From an uncultured Bacteroidales bacterium (GTDB lineage Bacteria; Bacteroidota; Bacteroidia; Bacteroidales; WCHB1-69): a DNA stretch of 64,000 nucleotides. Of the stretch, positions 7,057 through 31,325 are shown one piece after another. The stretch's first letter is position 1, and each line of letters starts with the position of its first letter. Both the position numbers and the translations under genes were made by a program. A model generated the notes under the pieces. That model did not search any database and had not been told where the DNA came from. It worked only from the letters and a program-made list of their open reading frames with translations. The DNA lies in the NCBI GenBank assembly GCA_937892025.1, contig CALAVA010000042.1, positions 739-64,738 of the forward strand. Reading direction: 5' to 3'.

Positions 7057-7306
7057 TTTTATCTGCTATGGCAATTACGTTGATGTACATGGCAACAAAA
7101 ATGTATATTTGGGAATTAACAAGAATAATTACTTCGTTGCCGATGAAGGCGATGGAATGTACAACGTGTTTGCTTATGCCGACTTTGACGAGGAAGGCTA
7201 TTATACAGACCACAACGGAGAAGATGGCTACCACATCAGCGACTTTGACATCGTGTTTGAATGCAGACACTTTGAAGATGCTTGCAGGTGGATAGACCAA
7301 CAATGA
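7040..7306 (+). CDS. hypothetical protein (88 aa)
   Basis: Internal ATG (MKVKGNFICYG) of ORF-track ORF 6977..7306; overlaps the previous small ORF. Confidence 0.45.
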   Translation: MKVKGNFICYGNYVDVHGNKNVYLGINKNNYFVADEGDGMYNVFAYADFDEEGYYTDHNGEDGYHISDFDIVFECRHFEDACRWIDQQ

Positions 7307-10626: not shown

Positions 10627-10700
10627 ATGGTAAAACGTAAAGGGTATAAATTTTTTCAAACTTTTAACCGAAATAATTTGGAATATTCAAAATATCTGCT

Positions 10701-10708
10701 TAACTTTG
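10701..10708 (+). promoter_or_regulatory. Bacteroidetes-type -7 promoter motif TAACTTTG
   Basis: Matches TAnnTTTG, about 93 nt upstream of tRNA-Ser. Confidence 0.5.
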
Positions 10709-10800
10709 CAACCGATAAATTTCTTGGGAATAAACCATAAAATGTAAATTTAAGTTAGTGAAAAGCCAATCCCTGTTTGTGAAAATGGGGATGGCTAAAG

Positions 10801-10885
10801 GGAGGATTGGCAGAGTGGTAATGCAGCACATTGCTAACGTGTAACACGGTGAAACGTGTCGGTGGTTCGAGTCCATCATCCTCCG
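10801..10885 (+). tRNA. tRNA-Ser (anticodon GCU), long variable arm
   Basis: Hand-folded. Acceptor GGAGGAT/ATCCTCC. D-arm GCA-GAGTGGTAA-TGC. Anticodon loop TTGCTAA. Long variable arm. T-arm GGTGG-TTCGAGT-CCATC. Discriminator G. Confidence 0.8.
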
Positions 10886-10956
10886 CAAACCGCTGTGAAG
10901 CGACAGAGACTTTCCAATGGGAAAGAAAGAAAAGGGAGTAAATATTCATTGTATTA

Positions 10957-17514: not shown

Positions 17515-17554
17515 CTTTTAACACTTATTATTTGGTATATTCCAAACAAAGTTG

Positions 17555-17562
17555 TAACTTTG
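17555..17562 (+). promoter_or_regulatory. Bacteroidetes-type -7 promoter motif TAACTTTG
   Basis: Matches TAnnTTTG; the predicted start site falls at or near G17575. Confidence 0.5.
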
Positions 17563-17574
17563 CAACAATTTCAA

Positions 17575-17720
17575 GGGGATGCTCGGTGCTTGACCTCACT
17601 GAATCAAAAGAAGTATAACAGGGGAGTTGGTCGCAGCAGTCCTGCCTTTCTAAAAGTTCTTTTGAGCCGAAGGGACTGTGTAGGAGGTCTCATAAGGGAG
17701 TTCGATTCTCCCTATCCCTA
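17575..17720 (+). ncRNA. about 146-nt tRNA-like RNA of non-canonical length (tmRNA-TLD-like ends)
   Basis: 5' GGGGATG pairs with 3' TATCCCT (7 bp, two G-U). A perfect T-arm GGGAG-TTCGATT-CTCCC sits directly before the 3' strand. GACCTC (17592-97) pairs with GAGGTC (17684-89). No ORF; promoter directly upstream. Confidence 0.5.
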
Positions 17721-17748
17721 CTAACTTGAAAACGAAAACAAAAGATTT

Positions 17749-21292: not shown

Positions 21293-21751
21293 ATGACACA
21301 AGAAGATAAAAAACTGTTACTGAAAGACCTTTATGCAAGTATTAATACAGAACGATGGATGTCCTTGGAAGATTATCCAAACGAAGAGTGGAGAGATATA
21401 GATGGTTTTGATAATAGATATATGGTAAGTAATATTGGAAGGGTGAAAACAAAAGAGTTTACCTATACTTTATATGGGAAAAATCAAGTTAAGCCAGAGC
21501 ATATTCTTAAAACCACCGTGAGAAAGGATGGTTATTGTAAAGTAAATCTTGGGGGTTATAGGAATCAAAAGACCTTGAATTTACATCGCCTTGTTGCTAT
21601 TGCTTTTATTCCAAATCCACAAAATCTACCTTGTATAAATCATAAGGATGAAAATCCTTCAAACAATACAGTTGAAAATTTAGAATGGTGTTCCTACAAA
21701 TACAATAACAATTACGGTACTTTCAAAGAAAAACATTCAATAGCATTTTAA
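21293..21751 (+). CDS. HNH homing endonuclease (NUMOD4 + HNH_3), N-terminal and catalytic part ending at an in-frame TAA
   Basis: WRDIDGFDNRYMVSNIGRVK (NUMOD4) and NLHRLVAIAFIPNP...INHKDENPSNNTVENLEW (HNH_3). Confidence 0.7.
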   Translation: MTQEDKKLLLKDLYASINTERWMSLEDYPNEEWRDIDGFDNRYMVSNIGRVKTKEFTYTLYGKNQVKPEHILKTTVRKDGYCKVNLGGYRNQKTLNLHRLVAIAFIPNPQNLPCINHKDENPSNNTVENLEWCSYKYNNNYGTFKEKHSIAF

Positions 21752-23597: not shown

Positions 23598-24419
23598 ATG
23601 AACAAGATAATACGGAAGAAGAACGAGAACTACACAATTATTAGCAACGTGTGTGTTCGTGACAACAGGTTATCACTTAAAGCAAAGGGCTTGATGTCAC
23701 TTATTATGTCTCTTCCTGACGATTGGGATTTTTCGATACAAGGGTTAGCCTCTATTGTCAAAGAGGGTAAATCTGCTATATATGCTGCAATAACCGAATT
23801 AAAAGATTTTGGCTACTGCGAAGTCGTTTCTAATCGTGACGATAAAGGAAAGATTATAGGTAACGATTACACATTCTTTGAAGAACCTAATTCCGAAAAG
23901 CCATATACCGAAAAACGGGATATGGATTATCAAGATATGGATTATCAAGATTTAGAAAATCAGCCACAAATAAATAAAGATATAAAAGAAATAAAGACAG
24001 AAACAATAAAAGAAAAAGAAGATAAATCTTCTTCAAAGAAAAAACAAGATTTGGACTTGTCTATCGTTGATTCTTCATTTCTTTCGGTTGTTGAAATGTG
24101 GATTGCATACAAGAAAGAAAAGAGCCAATCATATAAACCGACAGGATTTAAGACATTCTACAAAAAACTTGTTGAGTTAAGTGGTAATAATCCTCAAATA
24201 GCCATGTTGATAATTGAGCAGTCAATGCAAAACAATTATGCTGGCATATTTCCACTAAAAGAATGGGAAAAAGAAAAGGTGAAACAACAAGAGAAATTCA
24301 GTGTCACCAATGAAGAAGTAATTTATAACACTTGGACTGATACATATACACCACGTGAAGGGCAGAAAAACCAAAAAGGGGAAGTGTGGAGTAGTCAATT
24401 AAACATTTGGTTGAAATGA
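23598..24419 (+). CDS. putative replication initiator / replisome organizer with N-terminal winged-helix domain
   Basis: N-terminus NYTIISNVCVRDNRLSLKAKGLMSLIMSLPDDWDFSIQGLASI..GKSAIYAAITELKDFGY is typical of phage Rep/DnaD-like wHTH; directly precedes the primase-helicase. Confidence 0.5.
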   Translation: MNKIIRKKNENYTIISNVCVRDNRLSLKAKGLMSLIMSLPDDWDFSIQGLASIVKEGKSAIYAAITELKDFGYCEVVSNRDDKGKIIGNDYTFFEEPNSEKPYTEKRDMDYQDMDYQDLENQPQINKDIKEIKTETIKEKEDKSSSKKKQDLDLSIVDSSFLSVVEMWIAYKKEKSQSYKPTGFKTFYKKLVELSGNNPQIAMLIIEQSMQNNYAGIFPLKEWEKEKVKQQEKFSVTNEEVIYNTWTDTYTPREGQKNQKGEVWSSQLNIWLK

Positions 24420-26533
24420 TACAGATGGATAAACAACAGGTGTACAAAACCTTTGAGGTGTTTTATCCGCAAGATGAAAAACGTCTCATTGAGGTGCGTA
24501 TGATAAACCCAAATAGTAAGACTGATATATGGTCTGGCTATTTCTATGACTACGAAAAAGCGTGGGAGGAAATCATACGTTACGATAATGGAACATATAA
24601 CTTCTACTTTCCGATAAACACCATTGATGAAAGATGTTATTCCATGTCACAGCGTGACAGATTGGTGCGTGGTGCTGAAACGACAAAAGACAAAGATATA
24701 ACAACACGCGACTGGGTTCTGATAGATATTGATACGGAGAAAGGTCACTTGAAGATAAGTAGCACAGAAAAAGAATGGCAGGATGCAAGAATGAAAACCC
24801 ATCAAGTAAGGAACTACTTGAAGAGTATGGGTTTTTCAGACCCCGTGGTATGCTCAAGCGGTAATGGACTACATCTTCTCTATAAGGTTGATAGATGGGC
24901 GAACACGGACACAAATACAAGGTTGGTCGAAAGATTCCTACTATCTTTGTCAGCATTGTTTTCAGATGATAAAGCAGAAATTGACAAAAAAGTATTCAAT
25001 GCAGGCCGAATAACAAAATTTTACGGGACGGTTGCACACAAGGGTGTGGATTGTACCGAACGACCTCACAGATTAAGCCGTTTCTTGCTTATTCCCGAAG
25101 AGATAAAGACAACGGATAAAAGTTATTTTGAAAAAATTGCTAATATACTACCTGATGAAAAGGAAAGTAGGACAACACAAAACTTTGTCCGCAATTATGA
25201 AAACTTTGACATAGATGAGTTTATTCGTAAGCACAACATACAGGTTGCAAAAGACACGATGGACGGTGACACAAGAAAAATTGTGTTAAAAGAATGTCCT
25301 TTTGGTGGTGATGCTCATTCTGCCCCCGATTCTGCAATTTTTGTGATGAAGAATGGAGCGATAGGATTTTCTTGTTTCCATTCATCTTGTGCGGGGTACA
25401 CATGGAAAGATGTACGGCTGAAATACGAACCAGACGCATACGACAAAAAAGAATACAACAACTTTCAGTACAGACAGAGGTACAACACCCCACAAAGAAT
25501 AGAGCCTATAAAGCCATTGGAGGAAACGGCAGAAAAAGGCAAGGTGTGGCTAAAGATGTCAGATATTAGAAAGCCATCTTTCTCTTTTGCCGATTTTATC
25601 CCCTCTGGAATAACGGAACTTGACCGTAGAGGCGTTGGATTTAAGCGTGGTATGGTCTCTGTGTGGACTGGCAAACGTGGGTGTGGTAAATCCTCCTTGC
25701 TGAATATGCTTATCCTTAATGCTGCACAGAAGGGGTATAAGTCAGCATTGTGGACGGGTGAATTAACTTGTGACACGGCGAAGACTTGGCTGTATCTTCA
25801 AGCGGCAGGTAAGCAGTACAATGAAAGGCAATATGGTACGGACTATTACTCAACACCAGACCATATATCAGCAAAGATTGACACTTGGATTGACAAATAC
25901 TTTTGGTTGTTCAACAACAAGTATGGTGAGAATTTTAGCCAAATTGAAGACCAAATTCGTAAACTAAAGGAAAGCGAAAACATAGATGTAGTGTTGCTTG
26001 ACAATCTGATGGTTCTCGATTTACGTTCATTGGATGAAAACAAATATGACAGACAATCTATTTTGCTGCAAAAATTGACTGACCTTGCAAAAGAGTTGAA
26101 CATACATATACACCTTGTAGCACATCCGCACAAAAGTCTTGCATACATCCAAGTGGATAACATTAGCGGAAGTGGAGATATAAGCAATAAGGCTGACAAC
26201 GTGTTTGTATTAAGTCGTATTGATACAGGATTCCGTTCTGTTGCAGAGGAATACCTTGGCAAAATGGTTTATCAAGATGTGTTGGATTCCGCTTGCTCAA
26301 ACATCATTGAGGTTGGCAAGTTTCGTTCAAGAGGGACGCTGATGGGAATGGTCATAAAGTTGTGGTTTGAAGAAGAAAGCAATAGGCTGAAAAGCGATAA
26401 GGCTGAAAATGTCATATATGGATGGGTTTCGGAACCAAAGCAAAGTTCAATGAATTTTCAATCTGAAAGCAGTCACGATTTCCCCAATATGCCATTTGAT
26501 GCCCCATTGGAAGAAGAACAAGTACCTTTTTAA
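24407..26533 (+). CDS. primase-helicase fusion (AEP primase-polymerase domain + Cys/His cluster + DnaB/RepA-like P-loop helicase)
   Basis: AEP motifs LIDIDTEK and SSGNGLHLLYKV; CPFGG..HS....CFHSSC; Walker A TGKRGCGKSS; Walker B VVLLDNLM. Confidence 0.75.
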   Translation: MVEMIQMDKQQVYKTFEVFYPQDEKRLIEVRMINPNSKTDIWSGYFYDYEKAWEEIIRYDNGTYNFYFPINTIDERCYSMSQRDRLVRGAETTKDKDITTRDWVLIDIDTEKGHLKISSTEKEWQDARMKTHQVRNYLKSMGFSDPVVCSSGNGLHLLYKVDRWANTDTNTRLVERFLLSLSALFSDDKAEIDKKVFNAGRITKFYGTVAHKGVDCTERPHRLSRFLLIPEEIKTTDKSYFEKIANILPDEKESRTTQNFVRNYENFDIDEFIRKHNIQVAKDTMDGDTRKIVLKECPFGGDAHSAPDSAIFVMKNGAIGFSCFHSSCAGYTWKDVRLKYEPDAYDKKEYNNFQYRQRYNTPQRIEPIKPLEETAEKGKVWLKMSDIRKPSFSFADFIPSGITELDRRGVGFKRGMVSVWTGKRGCGKSSLLNMLILNAAQKGYKSALWTGELTCDTAKTWLYLQAAGKQYNERQYGTDYYSTPDHISAKIDTWIDKYFWLFNNKYGENFSQIEDQIRKLKESENIDVVLLDNLMVLDLRSLDENKYDRQSILLQKLTDLAKELNIHIHLVAHPHKSLAYIQVDNISGSGDISNKADNVFVLSRIDTGFRSVAEEYLGKMVYQDVLDSACSNIIEVGKFRSRGTLMGMVIKLWFEEESNRLKSDKAENVIYGWVSEPKQSSMNFQSESSHDFPNMPFDAPLEEEQVPF

Positions 26534-29063: not shown

Positions 29064-29477
29064 ATGGAACAAGAAAGCAAATACCGTCAGCCACACAACG
29101 AAGTGCCAGACAAAACAATTCTTCGATACGTTCTCCGTGAAAACGGTGCGTTGAAAGCCGAGAACGAGGAACTGCAAGAAAAGATAAAGTTATTGGAAAG
29201 ACAACTCGCCAACAAAGCAAAAGCCATTTCAGCGTTCAAAGAATGGCAAAGCAAGGTAGCCGAGTACAATGTGGAGTATTGGCTTAACCAAGGCATCGAA
29301 CTATTGAAAGAGCCACCAAAGAAAGAACTCATCAAAGCACTACGCCAATATGTCTGCACCTACCATACCTACAAAGACAAGGTAAATACGCTTATCAGCC
29401 TAATACAGAAACTTGAAGCAAAAAGGGAAGTTTTCGAGAAAGTAATTAAACAGGAAATTGAAGATGGAACAGTTTAG
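29064..29477 (+). CDS. coiled-coil protein (about 137 aa)
   Basis: First ATG of ORF 29058..29477. Confidence 0.5.
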   Translation: MEQESKYRQPHNEVPDKTILRYVLRENGALKAENEELQEKIKLLERQLANKAKAISAFKEWQSKVAEYNVEYWLNQGIELLKEPPKKELIKALRQYVCTYHTYKDKVNTLISLIQKLEAKREVFEKVIKQEIEDGTV

Positions 29478-29799
29478 ACAAGACTTATACAATGCTTGCT
29501 TGCTTGCGGATTTGCCGATTATCAGCCGTGACACAGCGGCAAAGATATTGGCGATAGTTGGACTGCAAGGCGGTGATGAAAGAATAGTTCTTTCGCCCAA
29601 ATGCCAATGCGACCTAAAGTATATTCAAGAACGATTCCATATACAAGGTGGTGAAACGCCCGATATAGTTGTGGCAAGACTTATGAAAAGGTACACAAAG
29701 GAACTGAAAGAATATACAGACGCACATAATGGAGAGTGGACGGATTGGGCGTATAAACTCTTTCACGAACGCTACGGATTCAGACTATACAATTTATAA
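29464..29799 (+). CDS. hypothetical protein (about 111 aa)
   Basis: First ATG of ORF 29458..29799. Confidence 0.5.
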   Translation: MEQFRQDLYNACLLADLPIISRDTAAKILAIVGLQGGDERIVLSPKCQCDLKYIQERFHIQGGETPDIVVARLMKRYTKELKEYTDAHNGEWTDWAYKLFHERYGFRLYNL

Positions 29800-29820: not shown

Positions 29821-30327
29821 ATGAACGACATTATCATTAACAACAGCAACGTCGCCATAAACGATAATATATGGCATTACAAAAGAAAGACGGTGAAAGA
29901 GCGACTGAAACGGCAAGAATCAATACGCTCCCAAAAGCGATTCTATCACTTGTTCAAGTTTAAGAAACTACGCATATATGTTACTTATAACATCCGCCTG
30001 AAAGGACGCAACAAACGTGACAGCGAAAACAATATCTTTGACACAAGGACGTTTAAGAAAAAGGTTTACCAGAGAGCAGAAGGCAAGTGTGAATTATGCG
30101 GCAAACAAATAACTTGGCAAGAATATCAGATGCACCATATCCTGCCTATCGGACGTTTCCCAGAGTATGCGATGGACGAAAGAAACCTGCTGTGCCTTTG
30201 TCACGAATGCCACAAGAATATACATAATAACCCATATACGGAAGTTGAACAAATGGAGAAATTGGGGGGGGTATTAAATATTGATGTTAAACAGAAATAC
30301 ATGGATTATGAACACAAAGCACAATAA
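29821..30327 (+). CDS. HNH endonuclease
   Basis: CELCGK...YQMHHILP.......NLLCLCHECHKNIH: classic HNH Cys/His motif. Confidence 0.75.
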   Translation: MNDIIINNSNVAINDNIWHYKRKTVKERLKRQESIRSQKRFYHLFKFKKLRIYVTYNIRLKGRNKRDSENNIFDTRTFKKKVYQRAEGKCELCGKQITWQEYQMHHILPIGRFPEYAMDERNLLCLCHECHKNIHNNPYTEVEQMEKLGGVLNIDVKQKYMDYEHKAQ

Positions 30328-30478
30328 GAAAGACTGGTATCTGAAAATAGAAATGGAAACGAGGGATGAAGTTTTGGAGTTTTACAATATGGTTAGGTCT
30401 TGGAATCATAGCCATAGCAACACTTTCATTGGATTGGAGAACTTCATTAAAGAAAATTACAATGTGGTGAATGGTTAA
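30308..30478 (+). CDS. small hypothetical protein (56 aa)
   Basis: Internal ATG of ORF 30281..30478, which overlaps the HNH gene end. Confidence 0.3.
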   Translation: MNTKHNKKDWYLKIEMETRDEVLEFYNMVRSWNHSHSNTFIGLENFIKENYNVVNG

Positions 30479-30537
30479 AATATCTAAACAACACGCAAAA
30501 AGTTTTCAAGCCGTTTGGTAAATTAAAAACAAAAACG

Positions 30538-30545
30538 TAACTTTG
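30538..30545 (+). promoter_or_regulatory. Bacteroidetes-type -7 promoter motif TAACTTTG
   Basis: Matches TAnnTTTG at the head of a 450-bp ORF-free interval. Confidence 0.5.
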
Positions 30546-30552
30546 CAACATC

Positions 30553-30822
30553 TTACGGCGGTAAGGTTCTCACTTTATCAATTAGAAGAAGGATTTTTCG
30601 GAAATTCGTATCAAAAATTTTACTTTTTTTTGAAACATCAAGGAATGGTCTGTGAAGATAGTTCCTTTCTTATGAAACACTCCGACCAAAGATAGCCTTT
30701 CAGCGATGAAAGGTGGGAGCAGCGGACGTAACTCTTTGCAAGCGTCAGGAAACAAATCGCAAAGACTCTGCCATAGAAAGATAGGTTAGTAAAAGATAGA
30801 GGTTCGAGTCCTCCGCTGCTTA
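30553..30822 (+). ncRNA. about 270-nt non-coding RNA candidate ending in a tRNA-like module
   Basis: No ORF of 60 aa or more. At the 3' end, T-arm GAGG-TTCGAGT-CCTC is followed by CGCTGCT, which pairs perfectly with AGCAGCG at 30718-30724. Hairpin cctttc-agcgat-gaaagg lies at 30696-30713. Confidence 0.45.
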
Positions 30823-30932
30823 CAAATAAATAGTTCTACCCCGAAGTTGAGAAGAATGATGCTGTAAAACAAGAAACGTACAGAAATCGCCAAGCAGCAT
30901 CATTCTCTCTTCCTTTCACGAAAACAACAGAA

Positions 30933-31325
30933 ATGAAATCTTACGAAATCGAAGAAAAGTCTTACACGCTACATCTTCCAGACCCCCCTACAAACGGAAA
31001 CAAAGGTCGTTTTGTCAAAGGGATGAAAACATGGAACAAAGGAATGACGTGGGAAGAAATGGGAATAAGCAAGGATGCACAAGAAAAGATACGCTCCATT
31101 CTTGCGGAAGGCAGAAAAAAGTGCGACCATCACAAGTGCGGAGGATGGAACGCTAAACCAATCATCCAAATGGATGAAGATGGCAATAGAATAGGATGGT
31201 TCTACTCCAGCCACCATGCCGCCAAACGGTTAGGGCTGATAGGAAGGAACATCCGCCTTGTATGCGAGGGAAAAAGACCTCGATGTGGTGGCTTTAGGTT
31301 TAAGTTTGACCCAATTTTTTTATAG
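30933..31325 (+). CDS. NUMOD-type DNA-binding protein (homing-endonuclease-associated modules, no nuclease domain seen)
   Basis: GRFVKGMKTWNKGM (NUMOD3-like) and IIQMDEDGNRIGWFYSSHHAAKRLGLIGRNIRLVCEGKR.RCGGFRFKF (IENR/NUMOD1-like). Confidence 0.5.
   Translation: MKSYEIEEKSYTLHLPDPPTNGNKGRFVKGMKTWNKGMTWEEMGISKDAQEKIRSILAEGRKKCDHHKCGGWNAKPIIQMDEDGNRIGWFYSSHHAAKRLGLIGRNIRLVCEGKRPRCGGFRFKFDPIFL

What the first reader, a model, noticed from the sequence alone, without database searches (positions are those of the whole stretch)
30538..30905. About 270-nt ORF-free transcription unit ending in a tRNA-like module, flanked by homing-endonuclease genes
The 450-bp gap between an HNH endonuclease (29821..30327) and a NUMOD-type protein (30933..31325) opens with a TAACTTTG promoter. 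It has no ORF of 60 aa or more. It ends with GAGG-TTCGAGT-CCTC followed by CGCTGCT, which is perfectly complementary to AGCAGCG at 30718-30724, giving an acceptor/T-arm mimic. The roughly 100-nt module between these does not fold into a canonical D or anticodon arm by eye; it has a 7-bp stem TCTTTGC/GCAAAGA with a 19-nt loop. A 165-nt structured leader precedes it. A 12-bp inverted repeat (30853-64 / 30894-905) follows it. The endonuclease flanks suggest a mobile or intron-like RNA context.
Basis: partly seen in the sequence, partly recalled or inferred. Interest (0 to 1): 0.6.

Follow-up and report, generated by a model that had tools for sequence, protein, structure and literature searches.

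The report
Anticodon-less tRNA-like gene in phage
A phage gene slot that holds an ordinary glutamine tRNA in related phages here holds an RNA with only the tRNA's promoter, end-pairing stem, T arm and tail, so it cannot decode and is most likely a remodelled or decaying tRNA gene, not an intron or mobile RNA.

Summary
The sequence features are real. A bipartite Bacteroidota promoter (TTTG-N20-TAACTTTGCAAC, 30514-30549) precedes a 171-nt leader and a 105-nt module (30717-30821). The module has an 8-bp acceptor-type helix, a 4-bp T stem with a canonical UUCGAGU loop, A73 and a CAA(A) tail.

The same promoter drives the window's only called tRNA (Ser-GCU, 10801) and a second uncalled tRNA-like gene (17575-17719).

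The 74-nt body has no D arm or anticodon arm. ARAGORN, Rfam and all single-deletion variants fail to give a tRNA, intron, tmRNA or Y RNA.

No homologue was found in about 100 related phage loci, 400 genomes of the host order, or IMG/VR, metagenome and GTDB pattern scans. The only other copy is a 98.9%-identical strain, which is uninformative.

Two more distant relatives carry the same promoter type, a canonical tRNA-Gln(UUG) and the same trailer. In each it lies beside a homologue of one of the two flanking endonuclease-like genes.

I read the module as a tRNA-type gene unit in the tRNA-Gln slot that has lost its decoding body. I could not decide whether it is an inert relic or a working tRNA mimic. 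The intron-like or mobile RNA reading is not supported. Interest is modest.

The parts
30514..30549 (+). Bipartite Bacteroidota-type promoter: -33 TTTG (30514-17), a 20-nt spacer, then -7 TAACTTTG (30538-45) extended to TAACTTTGCAAC.
   Evidence: The same 12-mer and the same spacing occur at 10677-10712 (before tRNA-Ser) and at 17531-17566 (before the second tRNA-like gene). Alignment A4 shows the same promoter type before tRNA-Gln in L237 and L235.
30546..30716 (+). Leader of about 171 nt. It has small hairpins at 30552-30565 and 30640-30667, an A/T-rich T8 tract at 30623-30630, and a 7-bp GNRA hairpin CCTTTCA-GCGA-TGAAAGG (30696-30713) three nt before the module.
   Evidence: tRNA and tRNA-like genes in this window and in relatives also have a hairpin just upstream. 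The only differences from strain L232 in the unit's transcribed part (leader and module) lie at 30631-30637.
30717..30724 (+). Acceptor-type helix, 5' strand GAGCAGCG.
   Evidence: It pairs with 30814-30821 (G.U plus 7 Watson-Crick pairs). Perfect complementarity runs on to 30726/30812 (I4).
30725..30798 (+). Non-tRNA body of 74 nt. It contains hairpin GACGU-12 nt-GCGUC (30725-30746). An alternative 7-bp stem is 30733-39 / 30759-65; with a 4-bp version of the hairpin (GACG/CGUC) the two could form an H-type pseudoknot. The remaining 33 nt (30766-30798) are A-rich and unpaired.
   Evidence: There is no D arm and no 5-bp/7-nt anticodon arm. ARAGORN calls no tRNA in any single-deletion variant. 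The 5' part is no more similar to 75 tRNAs than shuffled versions are.
30799..30813 (+). T arm: GAGG-UUCGAGU-CCUC (4 bp, canonical 7-nt T loop).
   Evidence: It has the same T loop as the window's tRNA-Ser.
30814..30825 (+). Acceptor 3' strand CGCTGCTT (30814-21), discriminator A (30822) and trailer CAA (30823-25, followed by A).
   Evidence: The N73-CAA(A) trailer is shared with tRNA-Ser of the window, with tRNA-Gln of L237 and L235, and with about half of 30 tRNA genes of related phages.
30853..30906 (+). Perfect 12-bp inverted repeat AGAATGATGCTG / CAGCATCATTCT with a 30-nt loop, 27 nt before the next start codon. No U-run follows.
   Evidence: I2. It is not scored as a terminator. The role is inferred: a transcript end or a barrier before the NUMOD-like gene.
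29821..30327 (+). HNH endonuclease gene (168 aa).
   Evidence: Pfam PF01844, E = 9.8e-6, above the cut-off. A homologue (37% identity) lies 0.8 kb downstream of tRNA-Gln in L235.
30933..31325 (+). 130-aa protein with a C-terminal I-HmuI NUMOD-like DNA-binding domain. No nuclease domain was detected.
   Evidence: Pfam PF22083, 25.7 bits, against a cut-off of 27. A homologue (48% identity) lies directly upstream of the promoter and tRNA-Gln unit in L237.
10677..10886 (+). Sister unit 1: same promoter, about 95-nt leader with a hairpin, and canonical tRNA-Ser(GCU) at 10801-10886.
17531..17722 (+). Sister unit 2: same promoter, then at once a 145-nt uncalled tRNA-like gene (GGGGAUG ... GGGAG-UUCGAUU-CUCCC-UAUCCCU-A).
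   Evidence: Conserved homologues exist in IMG/VR contigs.

Best explanation
The unit is a tRNA-type gene in the slot where related phages carry tRNA-Gln(UUG). It keeps every signal that makes and trims a tRNA: the early promoter, a leader hairpin, a 12-bp acceptor/T coaxial helix (8 + 4 bp), a canonical T loop, A73 and the clade's CAA(A) trailer. The D arm, anticodon arm and variable loop are replaced by an unrelated, A-rich 74-nt body.

Inferred mechanism: host RNA polymerase starts a few bases downstream of the -7 box (about 30550). RNase P cuts at the 5' end of the helix, at or near 30717. 3' trimming and CCA repair act on the A-CAA tail. The result is a roughly 105-nt RNA that cannot read a codon.

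I think it is most likely a remodelled or degenerating tRNA gene. It may have been scrambled in the endonuclease-rich neighbourhood, with the promoter kept because it also feeds the downstream genes.

Shown: the sequence anatomy, the shared promoter and trailer, the lack of a cloverleaf, and the positional equivalence. Inferred: transcription, processing, and the relic status.
For: - The promoter is identical in core and spacing to those of tRNA-Ser and of the second tRNA-like gene.
- In the four-unit alignment A4, only the promoter, the T loop and the N73-CAAA trailer are conserved.
- Closure by 9 perfect pairs next to a T hairpin is expected 0.057 times per random window.
- ARAGORN and Rfam give no call, even at E <= 10.
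- None of the single-deletion variants is called a tRNA.
- L237 has the order: ORF-29458 homologue, NUMOD homologue, same promoter, tRNA-Gln(UUG), A-CAA.
- L235 has the same promoter type and tRNA-Gln 0.8 kb upstream of an HNH homologue.
- The window has no tRNA-Gln of its own.
- No homologue of the module was found in about 100 related loci, 400 genomes or three collection scans.
- The body is not more stable than shuffles, z = -0.5.
Against: - The acceptor and T helices are flawless (12 of 12 paired) while the body is unrecognisable. Uniform decay would not give that. It suggests either a recent rearrangement or selection on the minihelix.
- Related phages hold conserved, covarying families built the same way, with an intact minihelix and a non-tRNA body. 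The design can therefore be functional.
- There is no sequence similarity between the module and the relatives' tRNA-Gln beyond the T loop. Descent from tRNA-Gln is positional inference only.
- A T8 tract in the leader (30623-30630) could stop some transcripts before the module.
Confidence: 0.5

Rival explanations
1. It is a working, non-decoding tRNA mimic. The minihelix gives RNase P/CCA processing and stability. The body, possibly a pseudoknot formed by GACG/CGUC and UCUUUGC/GCAAAGA, is the active part. It could act as a decoy for a tRNA-directed host nuclease or enzyme. It could also titrate a tRNA- or tmRNA-binding factor such as SmpB, as proposed for the TLD-only tmRNA of mycobacteriophage DS6A.
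For: - The minihelix, A73 and trailer are perfectly kept while the rest differs.
- The sister gene at 17575-17719 is conserved in other phages, with compensatory changes in its acceptor and T stems.
- A further family of anticodon-less tRNA-like genes covaries in relatives.
- Relatives even encode full tmRNAs.
- Published precedent: PMC4131195.
Against: - No homologue was found anywhere, so there is no covariation for the body.
- The body is A/U-rich and no more stable than shuffles.
- There is no G3.U70, and no tmRNA or Y RNA match in Rfam at E <= 10.
- No partner protein gene was found among the 30 window ORFs scanned with Pfam.
Confidence: 0.3
2. It is a miniature or TLD-only tmRNA. The layout would be: acceptor, pseudoknot, resume codon GCC at 30770, ORF AIER, stop UAG, T arm.
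For: The layout loosely recalls tmRNA. Phage tmRNAs exist in this clade, in L018 and L020.
Against: - G3-C70 stands in place of the universal G3.U70.
- ARAGORN makes no tmRNA call, even at relaxed thresholds.
- There is no Rfam tmRNA match.
- A four-codon tag would be shorter than any tmRNA tag I know of (about 8 residues or more, from my own knowledge).
Confidence: 0.05
3. It is an intron-like or mobile RNA element associated with the flanking endonuclease genes.
For: HNH and NUMOD-like genes flank it.
Against: - No intron family matches.
- The body is only 74 nt.
- No hidden split tRNA was found.
- It is a single copy in the genome.
- In relatives the same endonuclease-like genes flank an uninterrupted tRNA-Gln.
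Confidence: 0.03
4. It is a phage attachment-site remnant: a copied 3' half of a host tRNA gene, with the 5' complement arising by chance.
For: Temperate relatives carry tRNA 3' fragments beside their integrases, at L006 around 986 and L010 around 1598.
Against: - There is no tyrosine integrase on this contig. The only recombinase is a small resolvase 26 kb away.
- The 20-mer GGTTCGAGTCCTCCGCTGCT occurs in no tRNA of 185,579 species genomes; the single hit is not a tRNA.
- The putative host bin holds no such tRNA either.
- The unit has its own promoter and a 9-nt perfect 5' complement.
Confidence: 0.02
5. It is a chance resemblance in the 5' untranslated region of the downstream operon.
For: A loose scan finds about one T-arm-plus-closure per random window. 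The MFE fold does not form the T hairpin.
Against: - The strict closure is expected 0.057 times per random window.
- It lies within 300 nt downstream of one of three identical promoters, each of which precedes such a module.
- The A73-CAAA trailer is shared with the clade's tRNAs.
Confidence: 0.05

Closest known systems
Canonical phage tRNA genes of this clade, in particular the promoter plus tRNA-Gln(UUG) units of relatives L237 (9033-9104) and L235 (3968-4040)
   Same: Same promoter type, a hairpin in the leader, acceptor helix, T arm, A73 and CAA(A) trailer. Same neighbourhood: the ORF-29458 homologue and the NUMOD/HNH homologues.
   Different: No D arm, no anticodon arm and a 74-nt unrelated body. 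Not called by ARAGORN or the Rfam tRNA model. Acceptor sequence unrelated.
TLD-only tmRNA of mycobacteriophage DS6A (Hudson, Lau & Williams 2014, PMC4131195)
   Same: A phage-encoded RNA that keeps the acceptor and T arm of a tRNA and lacks an anticodon arm. It is proposed to act by titrating a tRNA-domain binding factor.
   Different: No G3.U70 alanine identity pair. No recognisable tmRNA D-loop analogue. No match to the Rfam tmRNA model or to ARAGORN's tmRNA search.
YrlA-type bacterial and phage Y RNAs with a tRNA-like domain (Chen et al. 2014, PMC4201824)
   Same: A non-coding RNA with a T arm and an acceptor-like stem. M. smegmatis YrlA is cut by RNase P and receives CCA.
   Different: YrlA is permuted (T, then acceptor-like hairpin, then D), with the RNA ends forming a Ro-binding stem, and lies within 4 kb of a Ro60 gene. 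Here the order is tRNA-like, there is no D arm, no TROVE gene was detected in the genome and there is no Rfam Y RNA match.
Free-standing homing endonuclease genes beside phage tRNA genes (T4 segB in the tRNA cluster; from my own knowledge, not checked in a paper here)
   Same: Endonuclease-type genes directly flank a tRNA-type gene. Relatives show the same pairing with an intact tRNA.
   Different: No cleavage site or homing was shown here. The NUMOD-like protein has no detectable nuclease domain.

Membership tests
tRNA (Rfam RF00005 / ARAGORN) | 7-bp acceptor stem closing the molecule, with a discriminator base | tested here: met
   GAGCAGC(G)/(C)GCUGCUU plus A73.
tRNA (Rfam RF00005 / ARAGORN) | T arm with a 7-nt UUCRANY loop | tested here: met
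   GAGG-UUCGAGU-CCUC at 30799-30813. The stem is 4 bp, or 5 with an A.C pair.
tRNA (Rfam RF00005 / ARAGORN) | D arm and 5-bp/7-nt anticodon arm (cloverleaf) | tested here: not met
   Neither arm can be drawn. No ARAGORN call at default settings, with or without the intron option. None of the single-deletion variants is called.
tRNA (Rfam RF00005 / ARAGORN) | Covariance-model score at or above the gathering threshold (29 bits) | tested here: not met
   No tRNA hit even at E <= 10 in a 701-nt search.
tmRNA / TLD-only tmRNA | G3.U70 pair (alanine identity) | tested here: not met
   The third pair is G30719-C30819.
tmRNA / TLD-only tmRNA | Match to tmRNA models (Rfam RF00023 clan, ARAGORN -m) | tested here: not met
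   True tmRNAs in relatives L018 and L020 are called by the same tool.
tmRNA / TLD-only tmRNA | Binding to SmpB and charging | not testable with these tools
   Needs biochemistry.
YrlA / Y RNA | Permuted T, acceptor-like hairpin, D order, with a terminal Ro-binding stem | tested here: not met
   The order here is 5' acceptor strand, body, T arm, 3' acceptor strand. Family definition taken from PMC4201824.
YrlA / Y RNA | Ro60 (TROVE) gene nearby | tested here: not met
   No PF05731 match in the whole assembly, which is 71% complete.
Group I / II intron or other self-splicing element | Match to intron covariance models; catalytic core of about 200 nt or more (size figure from my own knowledge) | tested here: not met
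   No Rfam match at E <= 10. The insert is only 74 nt.
allo-tRNA (8/4 acceptor/T geometry) | 8-bp acceptor plus 4-bp T stem | tested here: met
   8 + 4 is the best register.
allo-tRNA (8/4 acceptor/T geometry) | Anticodon arm and long variable arm | tested here: not met
   No anticodon-type hairpin. The family features are recalled from memory (Mukai et al. 2017) and were not re-read.
   The model scores its six training members (the only sequences it can score this high by construction) at 88-94 bits and gives the window module no hit at E <= 10.

The most novel reading that the evidence does not exclude
This phage clade has turned the tRNA gene format (promoter, acceptor/T minihelix, CAA tail) into a general chassis for small non-decoding RNAs, and the 30717-30821 module is one orphan example. 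Other examples would be the conserved 145-nt gene at 17575-17719 and the 'F' family in relatives. The minihelix would recruit RNase P and CCA-adding enzyme for maturation and stability. The variable body would carry the activity, for example as a decoy against tRNA-directed host defences or as an interferer with ribosome rescue.
Probability: 0.25. Interest if true: 0.65.

Novelty: new member of a known kind. Interest (0 to 1): 0.3.

Why it matters
Taken alone, the locus is a small annotation point: a tRNA-type gene that standard tools miss and that probably no longer decodes.

It matters more as part of a pattern. Among about 100 related phage loci, ARAGORN called only 29 RNA genes (27 tRNAs, 2 tmRNAs). 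My scan found 26 uncalled T-arm-plus-closure candidates there (several of them chance matches). By eye, about 16 of these have a strong tRNA-type acceptor/T minihelix joined to a non-tRNA or insert-bearing body. Two of these families show compensatory changes.

If some of these RNAs are functional mimics, this clade would be a good place to study what phages do with tRNA-shaped RNAs beyond decoding. The case also gives a concrete example of endonuclease-type genes travelling with a tRNA gene slot.

Tried and rejected
- Hidden intron-containing tRNA: every single deletion leaving 68-95 nt was run through ARAGORN and none was called. The same test recovers a tRNA from the insert-bearing gene of L006.
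- Relaxed ARAGORN thresholds: these gave 120-190 calls on the contig, which is pure noise.
- Homologue searches, all negative or chance-level:
  - phage GenBank records by blastn;
  - IMG/VR exact 22-mer;
  - nhmmer against 95-100 related loci. The weak hits in L055 and L057 lie inside coding sequence;
  - 400 genomes of the order, where only A/T-rich leader matches came back;
  - the metagenome pattern scan, with five chance hits and no T arm;
  - two GTDB pattern scans, with one non-tRNA hit.
- Membership of the 'F' tRNA-like family: rejected by covariance model R1.
- Ancestry from a specific tRNA: the best local alignment of the 5' 82 nt to 75 tRNAs scores below the mean of shuffled controls.
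- A similarity I noticed by eye between the first hairpin and the anticodon arms of tRNA-Met, tRNA-Ser or tRNA-Gln (including UUUG in the loop) is therefore not evidence.
- Threading the module onto 'pseudoknotted D-arm' or 'two-anticodon-arm' layouts, as noted in earlier findings of this scan: no fit.
- Microdiversity: the strain contig L232 has no difference in 30638-30983. Other equally long invariant stretches occur, so this says nothing.
- Antisense targets: only 13-20-nt matches at chance level.
- Exact-protein look-up of the NUMOD-like gene found nothing on record.

Full report
**What is there**

The window is nearly all of a 64.8-kb phage contig binned in a 2.3-Mb, 71%-complete assembly.

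Region 30479-30932 has no ORF of 60 aa or more.
- AGCAGCG at 30718-24;
- GAGG-TTCGAGT-CCTC at 30799-813;
- CGCTGCT at 30814-20;
- the 7-bp stem 30733-39 / 30759-65;
- a perfect 12-bp inverted repeat at 30853-64 / 30895-906, one base off the stated coordinates.

The closing helix is better than reported. AGCAGCGGA/TCCGCTGCT is a perfect 9-mer, and G30717.U30821 adds a pair. The best register is an 8-bp acceptor-type helix stacked on a 4-bp T stem. This is followed by A30822 and CAA.

**Is it more than chance?**

- A loose scan (T hairpin plus 7 pairs, G-U allowed, within 260 nt) gives about one hit per random 64-kb window.
- A strict scan (9 perfect pairs) gives 0.057 per window and finds only this site in the real window.
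- The stronger argument is context. TAACTTTG is the -7 box of a full Bacteroidota promoter, TTTG-N20-TAnnTTTG. That pattern occurs 8 times in the window against 1.75 expected.
- The extended form TAACTTTGCAAC occurs three times on the + strand.
- Each of the three is followed by a T-arm-plus-acceptor module: tRNA-Ser(GCU) at 10801-10886, a 145-nt uncalled module at 17575-17719, and the module under study.
- The module also carries the N73-CAA(A) trailer. About half of 30 tRNA genes in related phages show the same trailer in place of CCA.

I conclude that this is a tRNA-type gene unit and not a coincidence.

**What it is not**

- ARAGORN and Rfam call only tRNA-Ser in the window.
- A permissive Rfam search of 30300-31000 (E <= 10) returns no tRNA, tmRNA, Y RNA, intron or ribozyme family.
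- The 74 nt between the acceptor strand and the T arm contain no D arm and no 5-bp/7-nt anticodon hairpin.
- Deleting every possible internal segment never yields an ARAGORN tRNA. The same procedure does recover a tRNA from an insert-bearing gene of a relative.
- The module folds no better than shuffles, z = -0.5.
- There is no tyrosine integrase on the contig.
- The T-arm/acceptor 20-mer matches no tRNA in 185,579 species genomes. An attachment-site remnant is therefore unlikely.
- There is no TROVE/Ro60 gene detectable, and the strand order is not that of YrlA.
- The third acceptor pair is G-C, not G.U, so it fails the tmRNA identity rule.

**Relatives**

The primase-helicase (24407-26533) has more than 2,000 homologues, but the nearest is only 64% identical. 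I fetched about 100 loci of this phage group.

None holds a homologue of the module by nhmmer or by a covariance model of a tRNA-like family found there. Broader scans were also empty.

The only other copy is a 98.9%-identical strain contig (L232). There the module is unchanged, but other equally long stretches are invariant too, so this is uninformative.

**The informative comparison**

It came from the upstream ORF 29458-29799.
- In L237 (53% identity) the order is: ORF homologue, a 58-aa gene, a homologue of the NUMOD-like protein (48% identity), a promoter TTTGG-N20-TAACTTTGCAA, a leader with a hairpin, a canonical tRNA-Gln(UUG), then A-CAA.
- In L235 (61%) the same promoter type drives tRNA-Gln(UUG) 0.8 kb upstream of a homologue of the HNH gene.
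- The window has no tRNA-Gln.
- An alignment of the four units shows conservation of only the promoter, the T loop and the trailer.

The unit therefore occupies the tRNA-Gln slot, beside the same endonuclease-like genes. This explains the flanks without invoking an intron or a mobile RNA. Endonuclease-type genes are scattered through this phage (a third lies at 21293-21751) and through its relatives. Their pairing with a tRNA gene recalls T4 segB (from my own knowledge).

**Interpretation**

The signals for making and trimming a tRNA are intact, and the decoding body is gone. Two readings remain that I cannot separate.
- A relic or remodelled tRNA gene (my preference, 0.5). It has no homologues, an A-rich unstructured body, and a canonical tRNA in the same slot elsewhere.
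- A working tRNA mimic (0.3). The minihelix is flawless while the body differs. The clade also holds conserved, covarying RNAs of the same design, and even full tmRNAs. The published TLD-only tmRNA of phage DS6A is a precedent for an anticodon-less phage tRNA mimic.

**Novelty and score**

This is a new member of a known kind: a tRNA-derived, non-decoding tRNA-like gene. Interest is 0.3. The wider pattern listed under 'noticed in passing' deserves its own follow-up.

Noticed in passing
window 17531-17722: A 145-nt uncalled tRNA-like gene lies directly behind the same promoter. It is conserved in IMG/VR phage contigs (L025/L097, L100, L198, L099/L098) and shows compensatory changes in its acceptor and T stems. 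It has invariant single-stranded motifs CUGAAUCAA(A/C)AGAAGUAUAA and CUUUCUAAAAGUUCU. An in-frame mini-ORF, GCA-N4 codons-UUC-UAA, gives AAVLPF, AVILPF or AEALSF. The 5' end resembles the tmRNA D-loop region, but G3.U70 is absent and no tmRNA tool calls it. It could be a miniature tmRNA-like RNA.
   Followed up: partly
L004:6891-6963 and 7118-7194; L010:4570-4664; L014:4055-4144; L015:8689-8767; L016:7420-7504: This is a family of 73-95-nt tRNA-like genes with no Rfam match. ARAGORN does not call them. The layout is a GCC-acceptor, AGA, hairpin GCCGC-ACGAYGGNGCAAG-GCGGC, a 13-38-nt variable region, UGAGC, a T arm, then R-CAA. The acceptor and T stems covary. There is no anticodon arm in the short members.
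   Followed up: partly
L006:3544-3643, L013:2569-2668, L070:7916-8043, L031:4405-4551, L237:2005-2140: tRNA genes of related phages carry 30-70-nt insertions in the anticodon region. These are far too short for group I introns. The L006 gene scores 47.7 bits with the Rfam tRNA model, with 38 nt in place of the anticodon loop. Two of the inserts end in the same ACCCAAACC(C)GAC. How such RNAs would be matured, if they are, is unexplained.
   Followed up: no
L235:8510-9000: The same promoter type is followed by a roughly 450-nt ORF-free, G+C-richer stretch with a deep predicted fold (-142 kcal/mol). It has no Rfam match. It is a candidate large phage non-coding RNA.
   Followed up: no
L018:2670-2972 and L020:1570-1872: These are phage-encoded full-length tmRNAs (303 nt, tag AKVVNMTPCASLRAAA, G3.U70 present) in relatives of this phage.
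   Followed up: no
tRNA genes across the related loci and window 10885-10889, 30822-30826: The genes encode N73-C-N-A, most often CAA followed by A, in place of CCA. C74 and A76 are kept while position 75 is A, G or T. This suggests a clade-specific 3' maturation route that needs CCA repair.
   Followed up: no
L235:3769-3815: A 45-nt minihelix, GCGGAG-12 nt-GGGGG-AAUCGAAGU-CCCCC-UCCGC-A-CAA, sits just upstream of the tRNA-Gln promoter. It is an acceptor/T-like hairpin with no body at all.
   Followed up: no
window 9674, 10677, 17531, 19350, 23426, 30514, 34968 (+) and 55943 (-): There are eight bipartite TTTG-N19-21-TAnnTTTG promoters. Five of them share TTTGG(T/A)nnnTT upstream elements. They mark the early and replication operons.
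   Followed up: no
L004:6980-7900, L006:3690-3860, L237:1900-2000: Terminator-like hairpins with conserved loops (CCGTGAGG or CTTGTGAAAG) are repeated between and just upstream of tRNA and tRNA-like genes.
   Followed up: no
window 30815-30821 vs 30892-30898: The 3' acceptor strand GCTGCTT can also pair with AAGCAGC. That segment overlaps the 3' arm of the 12-bp inverted repeat, so two mutually exclusive folds are possible (I7). This may be chance.
   Followed up: no
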